Shown piece after piece: positions 51,001 through 54,000 of a DNA stretch of 64,000 nucleotides. This DNA is from a virus. Taxonomy: Duplodnaviria > Heunggongvirae > Uroviricota > Caudoviricetes. How positions within the stretch are numbered: the first letter of the stretch is position 1; each line of letters opens with the position of its first letter. The DNA is taken from IMG/VR virus record IMGVR_UViG_2880395615_000002, one strand, 5' to 3'. The position numbers were made by a program.

Positions 51001-54000
51001 GGCATTAGCTAACGGCGTACTGGCCCGCGAAGAAGCAATAAGTTCAGAAGTATTACACCGCCCTACTCTAAGCAGAGCGCAGATTCAGGCTAAAGGTACT
51101 CACGAAACGCCTGAGCGCATAGAAGACGCTAAGCCAATTAAGTTCATGGCACAGGACGTGATCTGGCAACAGAAAGAATACAGACGCAATCTGGAGCGAG
51201 CGGCCATTGTGTACGCGAATGAGTTTGGACATAAGCAACCAGAAACTGGTGTATGTCTTCCAAACGTAGCCATTTACGCGGCAGGCTACCGGAAATCAAA
51301 ACAACTGACGGCGAGGTGACTTGTGTTGGTCGCCAGAAAATGAAATTAGGCAGCAAACCACTTATTTGAGGTGAGATATGACAAAATCATGGAGCGTACC
51401 TTTTCCTGAATCAGAAACTGAACATGATGGAATGCCTGTTTTCTGGAGATTCCAGGCGACAGTTGAAGAAGATGGGATAAAAATATTCGCACTTCAATAT
51501 ATAGCTTTTCATCAGACAGAGCATTATGCATGGTTGGTTCCTGCGCATTGGATTGTTAATTTTAAACCAGCACCAAATCAGTGGTTACAGGAATGGAAAC
51601 AAAGGAGAAATAGATATGCAATTAAGAAAGTAGCAAAAAATGCAGAAAGATCTTTTGCATTCCCAACGAAGAAACTTGCCATTGAAAGTTTATTGCGCCG
51701 GAAGAAATACCATTTAATGAGAATCAAACAAGATTTGGCTGTTGTATCAACTCTTGTTGATGGTATGAAGAATATTGATACATCACACCAGATATTGAAT
51801 ATAACTTTGGACACAACCAAGAAACAGAAAATTGGGTATTTTATTAGTACGAATAAGCACTGTGTATTCATTCCAACGAGTGAATACACGGAGCAATGTC
51901 GCTCGTAACTAAACAGGAGCCGACTTGTTCTGATTATTGGAAATCTTCTTTGCCCTCCAATGTGAGGGCGATTTTTTATCTGTGAGGATATGAACAGATG
52001 TCAAACATCAAAAAATACATCATTGATTACGACTGGAAAGCATCAATAGAAATTGAAATCGACCATGACGTAATGACAGAGGAAAAACTTCACCAGATTA
52101 ATAATTTCTGGTCAGACTCTGAATACCGACTCAATAAACACGGCTCTGTATTAAATGCTGTATTAATCATGCTGGCGCAACATGCTCTGCTTATAGCAAT
52201 TTCAAGCGACTTAAATGCATATGGTGTTGTGTGTGAGTTCGACTGGAATGATGGAAATGGTCAGGAAGGATGGCCTTCAATGGATGGTAGCGAAGGAATA
52301 AGAATTACCGATATCGATACATCAGGAATATTTGATTCAGATGATATGACTATCAAGGCCGCCTGAGTGCGGCTTTACCGCATACCAATAACGCTTCACT
52401 CGAGGCGTTTTTCGTTATGTATAAATAAGGAGCACACCATGCAATATGCCATTGCAGGGTGGCCTGTTGCTGGCTGCCCTTCCGAATCTTTACTTGAACG
52501 AATCACCCGTAAATTACGTGACGGATGGAAACGCCTTATCGACATACCTAATCAGCCAGGAGTCCCAAAGAATGGATCAAACACTTATGGCTATCCAGAC
52601 TAAATTCACTATCGCCACTTTTATTGGCGATGAAAAGATGTTTCGTGAAGCTGTCGACGCTTATAAAAAATGGATATTAATGCTGAAACTGAGATCAAGC
52701 AAAAGCATTCACTAACCCCATTTCCTGTTTTCCTAATCAGCCTGGCATTTCGCGGGCGATATTTTCACAGCCATTTTCAGGAGTTCAGCCATGAACGCTT
52801 ATTACATTCAGGATCGTCTTGAGGCTCAGAGCTGGGCGCGTCACTACCAGCAGATCGCCCGTGAAGAGAAAGAGGCAGAACTGGCAGACGACATGGAAAA
52901 AGGCCTGCCCCAGCACCTGTTTGAATCGCTATGCATCGATCATTTGCAACGCCACGGGGCCAGCAAAAAAGCCATTACCCGTGCGTTTGATGACGATGTT
53001 GAGTTTCAGGAGCGCATGGCAGAACACATCCGGTACATGGTTGAAACCATTGCTCACCATCAGGTTGATATTGATTCAGAGGTATAAAACGGATGAGTAC
53101 AGCACTCGCAACGCTGGCTGGGAAGCTGGCTGAACGTGTCGGCATGGATTCTGTCGACCCACAGGAACTGATCACCACTCTTCGCCAGACGGCATTTAAA
53201 GGCGATGCCAGCGATGCGCAGTTCATCGCATTGTTGATCGTCGCCAACCAGTACGGCCTTAATCCGTGGACGAAAGAAATTTACGCCTTCCCTGACAAGC
53301 AGAACGGCATCGTTCCGGTGGTGGGCGTTGATGGCTGGTCCCGTATCATCAATGAAAACCAGCAGTTTGATGGCATGGACTTTGAGCAGGACAATGAATC
53401 CTGTACATGCCGGATTTACCGCAAGGACCGTAATCATCCGATCTGCGTTACCGAATGGATGGATGAATGCCGCCGCGAACCATTCAAAACCCGCGAAGGC
53501 AGAGAAATCACCGGGCCGTGGCAGTCGCATCCCAAACGGATGTTACGGCATAAAGCCATGATTCAGTGTGCCCGTCTGGCCTTCGGATTTGCTGGTATCT
53601 ATGACAATGATGAAGCCGAGCGCATTGTCGAAAATACTGCATACACTGCAGAACGTCAGCCAGAACGCGACATCACTCCGGTTAACGATGAAACCATGCA
53701 GGAGATTAACACTCTGCTGATCGCCCTGGATAAAACATGGGATGACGACTTATTGCCGCTCTGTTCCCAGATATTTCGCCGCGACATTCGCGCATCGTCA
53801 GAACTGACACAGGCCGAAGCAGTGAAAGCTCTTGGATTCCTGAAACAAAAAGCCTCTGAACAGAAGGTGGCTGCATGACACCGGACATTATCCTGCAGCG
53901 TACCGGGATCGACGTGAGAGCTGTCGAACAGGGGGATGATGCGTGGCACAAATTACGGCTCGGCGTCATCACCGCTTCAGAAGTTCACAACGTGATAGCA

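What the first reader, a model, noticed from the sequence alone, without database searches (positions are those of the whole stretch)
51378..51908. Unknown 176-aa gene replacing ral/sieB-type functions between N and ea10
In lambda this part of the pL operon carries restriction-alleviation and superinfection-exclusion genes. Here the slot holds one soluble 176-aa ORF with no motif I recognise, flanked by conserved N and ea10. Replacement genes at this position are good candidates for anti-restriction or exclusion functions.
Basis: inference. Interest (0 to 1): 0.4.

Follow-up and report, generated by a model that had tools for sequence, protein, structure and literature searches.

The report
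Frameshifted copy of Stx-phage gene L0079
The "176-aa unknown gene" is a one-base-deletion allele of a catalogued 156-aa early phage gene (933W L0079 / HK97 gp45) that sits where lambda has ral and sieB; its function is still unknown and the predicted fold matches no solved structure.

Summary
The ORF at 51378-51908 exists and lies between N and ea10, but its 176-aa length comes from a frameshift. The window is a Stx1-converting relative of phage 933W. The gene is 933W L0079 (= Phi24B vb_24B_11c = HK97 gp45, PHROG 1636), which is 156 aa in almost every other record.

The window lacks one A at 51785/51786. That is the only difference from 933W in 8.5 kb, and I found it in no other public sequence. 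It replaces the conserved 20-aa C-terminal tail (YNFGHNxETExWxF) with 40 out-of-frame residues that run into the lambda-type PreS sRNA/tL2a block.

The positional idea is right. The cassette is AT-rich, follows N genes of four types, and ends 10 bp before DNA identical to lambda's ral-ea10 spacer.

No evidence supports anti-restriction or exclusion. There is no homology to Ral, SieB or any Pfam, NCBIfam or PADLOC family. The protein is basic, and it is induced with the lytic pL genes.

A confident AlphaFold model (pLDDT 95.5) matches no PDB structure, only uncharacterised phage proteins. My best guess, at low confidence, is an immediate-early protein that binds nucleic acid or another ligand for host takeover or counter-defence. 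It is probably inactive in this window. The gene is already catalogued and its function is open.

The parts
51378..51908 (+). The ORF as it reads in this window (176 codons plus TAA). It is a frameshifted allele of 933W L0079 / HK97 gp45 / Phi24B vb_24B_11c.
51378..51785 (+). Native-frame part, codons 1-136, 100% identical to the 156-aa family protein. It covers the predicted three-stranded beta-sheet (residues 19-55), the short helices, the basic strand region (83-95) and the long helix (98-130).
51785..51786 (+). Site of the private 1-bp deletion: one A of the AA run in 933W 'TCAACA' is missing.
   Evidence: No other record has it. The control with the intact sequence is positive.
51786..51847 (+). 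DNA that encodes the conserved native tail (TPDIEYNFGHNQETENWVFY) and the native TAG stop (51845-51847) when the missing base is restored. In the window it is read out of frame.
   Evidence: Y142, F144, H146, N147, E149, T150, W153 and F155 are invariant in the close subfamily.
51848..51908 (+). Read-through extension of the frameshifted ORF into normally non-coding DNA. From 51857 this DNA is shared with lambda.
51857..51997 (+). Block identical (1 mismatch) to the lambda ral-ea10 spacer, which is the PreS/LPR1 sRNA locus. It marks the right-hand mosaic junction of the cassette.
   Evidence: PreS location and tL2a identity come from bioRxiv 10.1101/2024.10.31.621285. The block directly follows the gene in 68 of 79 IMG/VR loci.
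51950..51979 (+). Intrinsic terminator hairpin (TTGCCCTCCAATGTGAGGGCGA) plus T-run. It is the counterpart of lambda tL2a and the first terminator-like signal after N.
51368..51373 (+). Shine-Dalgarno sequence GAGGTG, 4 nt upstream of the ATG.
   Evidence: Read directly from the sequence.
51316..51369 (+). N-L0079 spacer. Out of frame with the 933W-type N, it encodes 'VTCVGRQKMKLGSKPLI*', a remnant of the 3' end of lambda- and 21-type N genes. It marks the left-hand junction of the cassette.
50936..51319 (+). N antitermination gene (933W/H-19B/HK97 type), the upstream neighbour.
51998..52366 (+). ea10 (DUF2528), the downstream neighbour, 100% identical to lambda Ea10.

Best explanation
The ORF is a copy of the catalogued phage gene 933W L0079 (= HK97 gp45 = Phi24B vb_24B_11c; PHROG 1636). 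In this window it carries a private single-base deletion.

The native product is a 156-aa soluble, basic protein. Its predicted structure has a long three-stranded beta-sheet, a conserved basic strand region and a 33-residue helix. A conserved aromatic C-terminal tail is modelled with high confidence (mean pLDDT 91-97 over residues 131-156), so I infer it packs against the core.

The gene is an AT-rich accessory cassette inserted directly after N and directly before the PreS sRNA/tL2a terminator. Lambda carries sieB/orf28/ral at that place. It is transcribed from pL with the early lytic genes. Because I found no intrinsic terminator between N and the gene, it is probably made together with N, before antitermination is needed (inferred).

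The most likely mode of action (inferred, low confidence) is stoichiometric binding of a nucleic acid, a nucleotide-like ligand or an acidic host protein. The binding surface would be the conserved basic and polar residues (R24, E46, T47, K83, K84, K87, K109). The purpose would be host takeover or counter-defence early in lytic growth. I do not think it is an enzyme, a DNA mimic or a membrane-bound exclusion protein.

In this window the frameshift removes the conserved tail and adds 40 unrelated residues, so the product is probably misfolded and inactive. The alternative is that the deletion is a sequence error.

Sub-confidences:
- Identity and frameshift: about 0.97.
- Early lytic pL accessory gene: about 0.85.
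- Binding-protein mechanism: about 0.35.
- Counter-defence as the purpose: about 0.25.
For: Identity:
- 99.9% DNA identity to 933W and many Stx phages.
- The annotated gene there is L0079, 156 aa; vb_24B_11c in Phi24B; HK97 Gp45 is 98.7% identical.
- PHROG 1636 at E 1.7e-98.

Frameshift:
-.
- 108 of 115 IMG/VR copies give a 156-codon ORF.

A real, constrained protein family:
- 20 full-length homologues of 56-97% identity across Escherichia, Cronobacter, Pectobacterium, Brenneria and Rosenbergiella have 46 invariant columns, including the tail motif.
- 82 representatives at 50% clustering match at E<1e-3.

Fold:
- AlphaFold2 with the 84-sequence alignment gives pLDDT 95.5 and pTM 0.82.
- The only matches are uncharacterised phage proteins in BFVD: 12 hits at E<=1e-3, TM up to 0.69.

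Cassette and position:
-.
- The same N-gp45-terminator layout occurs in HK97.
- Distant members always lie in early or early-left operons.

Expression:
- vb_24B_11c rises 43-fold on norfloxacin induction, like ssb (79x), gam (137x), bet (89x) and exo (98x). cI, stk and bor are unchanged (PMC4651098 Table S4).
- There is no terminator-like signal between N and the gene; the first one is at 51950.

Binding rather than catalysis:
- pI 9.07. Residues 61-131 have 18 K/R against 5 D/E.
- Family-wide conservation is mostly basic, aromatic or small residues, with no recognisable catalytic set.
Against: - There are no direct functional data for any family member.
- The conserved E46/T47/K87/R24 set could be an active site rather than a binding site.
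- Co-transcription with N rests on a simple hairpin scan that cannot see Rho-dependent terminators. In Cronobacter the homologue is flanked by terminators on both sides, so immediate-early expression is not a family-wide property.
- The RNA-seq fold change for this gene has P = 0.27, as do the other pL genes in that table.
- Whether the deletion is biological or a sequencing or assembly error cannot be decided from the sequence.
- Recurrent disruptions suggest the gene is dispensable in prophages. Examples are the IS629 insertion in JLK-2012 and premature stops in a few IMG/VR copies.
Confidence: 0.6

Rival explanations
1. Functional analogue of Ral: the protein alleviates host restriction, for example of type I R-M systems, early in infection.
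For: - It occupies the exact slot of ral in lambda.
- It is the first gene after N and is probably made very early.
- Accessory genes from phage early regions, including ral and abc1, scored as counter-defence genes in a 196-gene screen (PMC12373910).
Against: - No similarity to Ral (hhalign probability 0.1%).
- No anti-restriction Pfam family is among the hits.
- No structural match in the PDB, where Ocr, ArdA and ArdB/KlcA structures have been deposited (from my own knowledge).
- It is basic, not an acidic DNA mimic.
- Phi24B-type phages already carry an annotated lar restriction-alleviation gene elsewhere (Table S4).
- Distant members sit next to xis/int or replication genes, not in a ral-like slot.
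- I found no homologue in the held supplementary text of the accessory-gene screen.
Confidence: 0.12
2. Superinfection-exclusion or abortive-infection protein, a SieB-like function that protects the lysogen.
For: - Lambda and P22 carry sieB in this neighbourhood.
- Low-GC, moron-like composition.
Against: - No similarity to SieB (probability 0.5%) or to any PADLOC defence model.
- No membrane segment.
- No promoter-like site directly upstream.
- In Phi24B it is induced with the lytic pL genes, unlike the prophage-expressed cI, stk and bor.
- The family also occurs in non-lambdoid phages with no repressor or integrase in the surveyed flanks.
Confidence: 0.05
3. A DNA- or RNA-binding regulator of the phage's own programme, for example modulating transcription or antitermination, excision or recombination, or replication, rather than a host-directed factor.
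For: - A conserved basic strand-helix region.
- It always lies in early operons. It is directly upstream of xis-int in Pectobacterium and in a metagenomic prophage, directly after N in E. coli phages, and next to recE, primase or parB genes in other phages.
Against: - There is no helix-turn-helix or other recognised DNA-binding family.
- Neighbours are not conserved across the family, so there is no specific partner.
- The gene tolerates disruption in prophages.
- The type of N upstream varies freely, which argues against an N-specific cofactor.
Confidence: 0.2
4. The one-base deletion is a sequencing or assembly error, or some other artefact of this sequence. On this view the phage really encodes the normal 156-aa protein. 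This rival concerns the status of the allele, not the function.
For: - It is the only difference from 933W in 8.5 kb.
- It lies in a short AA run.
- It was found in no other public sequence.
Against: - Indels are otherwise rare in this window: 3 in 12.9 kb against 933W. It is therefore not an error-rich assembly.
- Independent natural disruptions of the same gene exist, namely IS629 in JLK-2012 and premature stops in some IMG/VR copies. A real inactivating mutation is therefore plausible.
Confidence: 0.45

Closest known systems
933W L0079 / HK97 gp45 / Phi24B vb_24B_11c (PHROG 1636; RefSeq WP_000167595, NP_049479)
   Same: The first 136 residues are identical and the DNA is 99.9% identical. 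The position is the same (N, then the gene, then the terminator), and so is the ribosome-binding site.
   Different: The window allele lacks one base. Its last 40 residues are therefore out of frame, the conserved tail YNFGHNQETENWVFY is lost, and the ORF is 176 rather than 156 codons.
Lambda Ral (restriction alleviation)
   Same: It occupies the same genomic slot, after N and immediately before the PreS/tL2a block and ea10. Both are small, soluble early pL products.
   Different: There is no sequence relationship (hhalign probability 0.1%). Ral is 66 aa and this protein is 156 aa. No evidence exists of an effect on restriction.
Lambda/P22 SieB (superinfection exclusion)
   Same: Lambda sieB is annotated at 34482-35036, directly next to N and in the segment this cassette replaces.
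   Different: There is no sequence relationship (probability 0.5%) and no membrane segment. It has a lytic rather than a prophage expression pattern.
Uncharacterised phage proteins with the same predicted fold (BFVD: Erwinia phage phiEa2809 A0A0A0YXB3, Achromobacter phage phiAxp-3, Delftia phage RG-2014, Rhizobium, Sinorhizobium, Cellulophaga and Tenacibaculum phages; PHROGs 13631 and 25384)
   Same: The predicted fold is shared (Foldseek E 5e-7 to 8e-4, TM 0.5-0.7). So are the sequence signature (Y/W-R ... E-G ... H-E-T ... K..K...RFAF.TK..A...L..RK) and the size of 130-160 aa.
   Different: Identity is only 11-25%. The C-terminal tail motif differs (GT..LV....FD instead of FGHN.ETE.W.F). They occur in many phage types. 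None has a known function.

Membership tests
L0079/gp45 family (PHROG 1636) | Significant full-length sequence match to the family profile | tested here: met
   phrog_1636 matches at E 1.7e-98 over residues 1-145 of the window ORF. The intact 156-aa form matches at E 2.2e-111 over 1-156. Residues 1-136 are 100% identical to P0001.
L0079/gp45 family (PHROG 1636) | Length of about 156-159 aa with the conserved C-terminal motif Y-[ND]-F-G-H-N-x-E-T-x-x-W-x-F | tested here: not met
   The window ORF is 176 aa and lacks the motif because of the 1-bp deletion. The motif is still encoded in the -1 frame at 51786-51844. The locus is a member; its product as encoded is a truncated and extended variant.
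L0079/gp45 family (PHROG 1636) | Location in the early-left (pL-type) operon of a temperate phage; in E. coli phages directly after N and before the PreS/tL2a block | tested here: met
Ral restriction-alleviation family | Sequence homology to lambda Ral | tested here: not met
   hhalign of the family profile against lambda Ral gives probability 0.1%. The only Pfam hit at E<=1 is Tmem26, at 0.12.
Ral restriction-alleviation family | Alleviation of type I restriction or enhancement of modification in vivo | not testable with these tools
   This needs plating assays of unmodified phage on EcoKI/EcoBI hosts with the intact 156-aa gene.
SieB superinfection exclusion | Sequence homology to lambda/P22 SieB, and expression from the prophage | tested here: not met
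   hhalign probability is 0.5%. There is no TM segment. In Phi24B the gene is induced 43-fold with the lytic genes.
DNA-mimic anti-restriction proteins (Ocr, ArdA) and ArdB/KlcA | Strongly acidic DNA-mimic surface, or the ArdB/KlcA fold; sequence or structural similarity | tested here: not met
Known anti-phage defence proteins (PADLOC-DB) | Match to any defence-system model | tested here: not met
   0 families at E<=10.

The most novel reading that the evidence does not exclude
The intact L0079/gp45 family may be the founding member of a new class of immediate-early phage counter-defence or host-takeover proteins. It spans PHROGs 1636, 13631 and 25384, is widespread in temperate phages, and also occurs in phages with no lysogeny genes nearby. 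Its fold has no solved relative. It is encoded right after N in Shiga-toxin phages and in HK97. It would act by binding a nucleic acid or signalling ligand, or a host immune protein.
Probability: 0.25. Interest if true: 0.6.

Novelty: already known. Interest (0 to 1): 0.3.

Why it matters
For this window the result is mainly a correction. The "new 176-aa gene" is a frameshifted copy of a gene annotated as hypothetical in the 933W and HK97 genome records and in hundreds of Stx phages and EHEC genomes. Any experiment should use the 156-aa form.

More generally, the family holds the first position after N in medically important Shiga-toxin phages, at the spot where lambda keeps its restriction-alleviation and exclusion genes. 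It has a confidently predicted fold with no solved analogue, and no function has been assigned to it. HK97 gp45 offers an easy genetic system for finding out what it does. If it proved to be a counter-defence factor, it would bear on the host range and spread of Stx phages.

Tried and rejected
- **Family libraries.** Pfam, NCBIfam and PADLOC scans of the ORF gave nothing. A Pfam scan of 67 family members gave only scattered chance hits.
- **PDB sequence search.** A profile search gave only a chance hit to CHMP4B at E 1.1.
- **First AlphaFold run.** With 20 close homologues the model was poor (pLDDT 60). I rejected it in favour of the 84-sequence run.
- **Structure searches.**
  - The afdb50 library was unavailable.
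- **Odd profile hits.** A 940-aa protein with 7 matches to the N-terminal hairpin is a DUF7507/DUF11 repeat surface protein, so it is a spurious beta-hairpin similarity.
- **Literature.**
  - Searches for L0079, the accession numbers, vb_24B_11c and HK97 gp45 found no functional data.
  - Searches for anti-defence screens and escape mutants also found none.
  - The only exception is the Phi24B RNA-seq table.
  - The 'HK97' hits refer to the capsid fold.
- **Programmed frameshifting.** I considered and rejected it. There is no slippery site, and no other genome carries the -1 configuration.
- **Antisense ORF.** 51578-51889 (103 aa, hydrophobic) was considered as an alternative gene. I rejected it as the mirror image of a lysine-rich, AT-rich coding strand. 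It has no support in any annotation.
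Full report
**1. Observation**

- An ATG-initiated ORF runs from 51378 to 51908 on the + strand, 176 codons. A GAGGTG ribosome-binding site sits 4 nt upstream.
- Upstream is an N antiterminator at 50936-51319 (Pfam N_peptide, E 2e-15).
- Downstream is ea10/DUF2528 at 51998-52366 (E 2e-47). Ea10 is 122/122 identical to lambda Ea10, while N is only distantly related to lambda N.
- The product has no hydrophobic segment and matches nothing in Pfam, NCBIfam or PADLOC.

**2. What the locus is**

- The 1.5 kb around the ORF is 99.9% identical to phage 933W, Min27, Phi24B and many other Stx1 and Stx2 phages.
- The window is not 933W itself. It is about 99% identical over most blocks, in the opposite orientation, with some blocks replaced.
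- It carries stx1A/stx1B at 36500-37735 on the minus strand. Its closest record over 14 kb is Stx1 phage AU6Stx1.
- In 933W the gene is L0079 (AAD25424, NP_049479). In Phi24B it is vb_24B_11c. In HK97 it is gene 45, 98.7% identical. In RefSeq E. coli genomes it is WP_000167595. All are annotated as hypothetical.
- It belongs to PHROG 1636, function unknown.

**3. The 176-aa length comes from a frameshift**

- L0079 is annotated as 156 aa, and every full-length homologue is 156-159 aa, matching only about 77% of the window ORF.
- Aligning the DNA shows one missing base. 933W reads ...ATACATCAACACCAG... and the window reads ...ATACATCACACCAG.... The site is 51785/51786.
- Codons 1-136 are native. 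From codon 137 the window reads the -1 frame and passes the native TAG at 51845-51847. It stops at a TAA at 51906-51908.
- The lost segment is TPDIEYNFGHNQETENWVFY. It contains eight residues invariant across 20 homologues from five genera: Y142, F144, H146, N147, E149, T150, W153 and F155.
- In the structure model this segment is ordered, with mean pLDDT 91-97.
- The last 52 bases of the window ORF lie in DNA that is non-coding in both 933W and lambda.

**4. How private the deletion is**

- Between about 44,500 and 53,000 the deletion is the only difference from 933W.
- All listed best matches among the 345 phage records and 672 complete E. coli genomes with this region align with a one-base gap. 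None is 100% identical.
- A 39-mer spanning the deletion has 0 exact hits in one genome per GTDB species and 0 in IMG/VR.
- The 176-aa protein is absent from a collection of about 15 billion proteins.
- As a control, the same pattern with the A restored hits at least 120 IMG/VR contigs. In 108 of 115 of those the ORF is exactly 156 codons.
- The deletion is therefore either a very recent inactivating mutation or a sequence error. I cannot tell which.
- Real disruptions of this gene do occur:
  - an IS629 insertion at about codon 138 in phage JLK-2012;
  - a few IMG/VR copies with premature stops;
  - one metagenomic variant that diverges after residue 111 (P0006).

**5. Anatomy of the cassette**

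- *Right junction.* Ten bases after the native stop, from 51857 to 51997, the window is identical (one mismatch) to the lambda DNA between ral and ea10.
  - In lambda that spacer encodes the Hfq-dependent sRNA PreS/LPR1, whose 3' hairpin is terminator tL2a of the early-left operon (bioRxiv 10.1101/2024.10.31.621285).
  - The hairpin and T-run are at 51950-51979.
- *Left junction.* The 58-bp spacer after the 933W-type N stop encodes, in another frame, VTCVGRQKMKLGSKPLI*.
  - This is the C-terminus of the lambda-type and 21-type N proteins that directly precede the same gene (8-nt gap) in other phages.
- *Synteny across IMG/VR loci that hold the intact gene*:

| Feature | Loci |
|---|---|
| PreS block follows immediately | 68 of 79 |
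| ea10 is the next gene | 20 of 79 |
| 933W-type N directly upstream | 32 of 91 |

  - In the other loci the upstream gene includes N of lambda type, of phage-21 type, and of an arginine-rich Nun-like type.
- *Composition.* The cassette is 35.7% GC, against 49.2% for N and 48.6% for the window.
This is a mobile accessory cassette occupying the segment that holds sieB/orf28/ral in lambda.

**6. Expression**

- The simple scan finds no terminator-like signal between N and the gene. The first one downstream of N is the tL2a-like hairpin.
- I infer that the gene is co-transcribed with N from pL before antitermination is needed. This is an inference, because Rho-dependent sites are invisible to the scan.
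- In Cronobacter the homologue has terminators on both sides.
- In Phi24B lysogens, RNA-seq shows vb_24B_11c up 43-fold after norfloxacin (PMC4651098 Table S4).
  - That matches ssb (79x), gam (137x), bet (89x) and exo (98x).
  - cI, stk, bor and int are unchanged.
  - The P value is 0.27, shared with the other pL genes.
- It is therefore an early lytic gene, not a lysogen-expressed one.

**7. The protein family**

- An exhaustive profile search of 1.84 billion cluster representatives finds 82 proteins at E<1e-3. Most are 130-160 aa and 19-27% identical to L0079.
- All fall in PHROGs 1636, 13631 or 25384, all of unknown function. None has a Pfam domain.
- Neighbourhoods of distant members are always early operons:
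  - after N and before cIII in Cronobacter;
  - directly upstream of xis-int in Pectobacterium and in a metagenomic prophage;
  - among small ORFs near a DNA methylase and the integrase in Marinobacterium;
  - between the repressor and recT/yqaJ/ssb in another prophage;
  - next to recE or primase/parB genes in Vibrio and Klebsiella phages.
- No neighbour is conserved, so it acts alone or with a host component.

**8. Structure**

- With 20 close homologues the AlphaFold2 model was poor (pLDDT 60).
- With 84 sequences including the distant members it became confident: pLDDT 95.5, pTM 0.82, with all five models at 94.8 or above.
- It has long strands at 19-30, 33-46 and 50-55, two short helices, a strand at 83-86, a 33-residue helix at 98-130, and an ordered tail.
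- Foldseek against 350,542 PDB chains gives a best E of 1.0.
- BFVD gives 12 hits at E<=1e-3, all uncharacterised proteins. They come from Erwinia, Rhizobium, Sinorhizobium, Achromobacter, Delftia, Cellulophaga and Tenacibaculum phages.
- The fold is thus widespread in phages but has no solved or named relative.

**9. Mechanism (inferred)**

- The protein is basic: pI 9.07, family median 8.9.
- The charge is concentrated in residues 61-131, with 18 K/R against 5 D/E. The N-terminal sheet and the tail are acidic.
- Across all 84 sequences the best-conserved positions fall into three groups:
  - basic: R24, K83, K84, K87 (98%) and K109;
  - polar or small: E46, T47, G33 and A101;
  - aromatics that look structural.
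- There is no recognisable catalytic motif and no membrane anchor. The charge is the opposite of a DNA mimic.
- I therefore favour a stoichiometric binder of nucleic acid, a nucleotide-like ligand or an acidic host protein. It would be made at the very start of lytic growth for host takeover or counter-defence.
- This is a weakly supported inference, at roughly 0.35 for 'binder' and 0.25 for 'counter-defence'.
- In the window itself, losing the conserved tail and gaining 40 unrelated residues most likely inactivates the protein.

**10. Comparison with known systems**

- *Ral.* It shares the slot but nothing else (hhalign probability 0.1%).
- *SieB.* It shares the neighbourhood only: probability 0.5%, no TM segment, and a lytic expression pattern.
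- *DNA-mimic and ArdB-type anti-restriction proteins.* There is no sequence or structural match, and the charge is opposite.
- *PADLOC defence models.* None match.
- *Accessory-gene screen.* A screen of 196 phage accessory genes recovered ral, ocr, ardA and new counter-defence genes from early regions. I found no homologue of this family in its supplementary text as held (PMC12373910).
- *Other literature.* No paper in the searchable library reports a function for L0079, vb_24B_11c or HK97 gp45.

**11. Verdict**

The ORF and its flanks are real, but the length and C-terminus result from a private one-base deletion.
The slot argument is right. The anti-restriction and exclusion functions have no support, and the exclusion variant is disfavoured.
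- The gene is already catalogued, so the finding is not novel. What remains open is the function of a widespread early phage family with an unsolved fold.
- Interest is modest, 0.3.

Noticed in passing
window 51857-51997: This block is identical (1 mismatch) to the lambda ral-ea10 spacer, which encodes the Hfq-dependent sRNA PreS/LPR1 ending in terminator tL2a (hairpin at 51950-51971). This Stx1 phage therefore probably encodes PreS. The block directly follows the L0079 gene in 68 of 79 related viral contigs.
   Followed up: partly
window 51316-51369: The spacer between the 933W-type N stop and L0079 encodes, out of frame, 'VTCVGRQKMKLGSKPLI*'. That is the C-terminus of the lambda- and 21-type N proteins that abut the same gene in other phages. 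It is a recombination scar marking a mosaic junction inside the 3' end of N.
   Followed up: yes
window 36500-37735 (minus strand): stx1B (89 aa) and stx1A (318 aa as listed by the ORF tool) are present where 933W has stx2. The window is therefore a Stx1-converting relative of 933W. Its closest record over 14 kb is AU6Stx1 at 99.5%.
   Followed up: partly
window 47602-50447: A module lies between cI and tM: cI, L0084 (113 aa), L0083 (153 aa), the eukaryote-like Ser/Thr kinase stk (348 aa) and L0081 (54 aa). It ends at a strong terminator at 50446-50467. In Phi24B, stk is not induced with the lytic genes. From memory, 933W Stk is reported to exclude HK97. L0083 and L0084 have no assigned function.
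   Followed up: no
L015 (phage JLK-2012, JQ347801) 701-1153: The same gene is truncated at about codon 138 by an IS629 insertion, almost the same place as the frameshift in the window. A few IMG/VR copies have premature stops (codons 104-131), and the metagenomic protein P0006 diverges after residue 111. Recurrent loss suggests the gene is dispensable in prophages.
   Followed up: partly
window 44064 and 44475: These are the only other two indels against 933W in the 12.9-kb early block: one base missing at 44064 and one extra T at 44475. They map near 933W L0092 and the L0091-L0092 spacer. I did not examine their effect on coding.
   Followed up: no
window 51578-51889 (minus strand): A 103-aa, GTG-initiated, very hydrophobic ORF lies antisense to L0079. 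It is probably the mirror image of a lysine-rich, AT-rich coding strand. No record annotates it.
   Followed up: partly
window 52390-52409: A second terminator-like hairpin with a T-run lies just after ea10 and before cIII/kil. ea10 is thus bracketed by two intrinsic terminator signals in the pL operon.
   Followed up: no
window 30081-31467, 39375-42960 and 55863-64000: These blocks have no alignment longer than 300 bases to the first 50 kb of 933W (mosaic replacements). Window 1-8603 was not compared, because only 933W bases 1-50000 were fetched. Their content was not examined.
   Followed up: no
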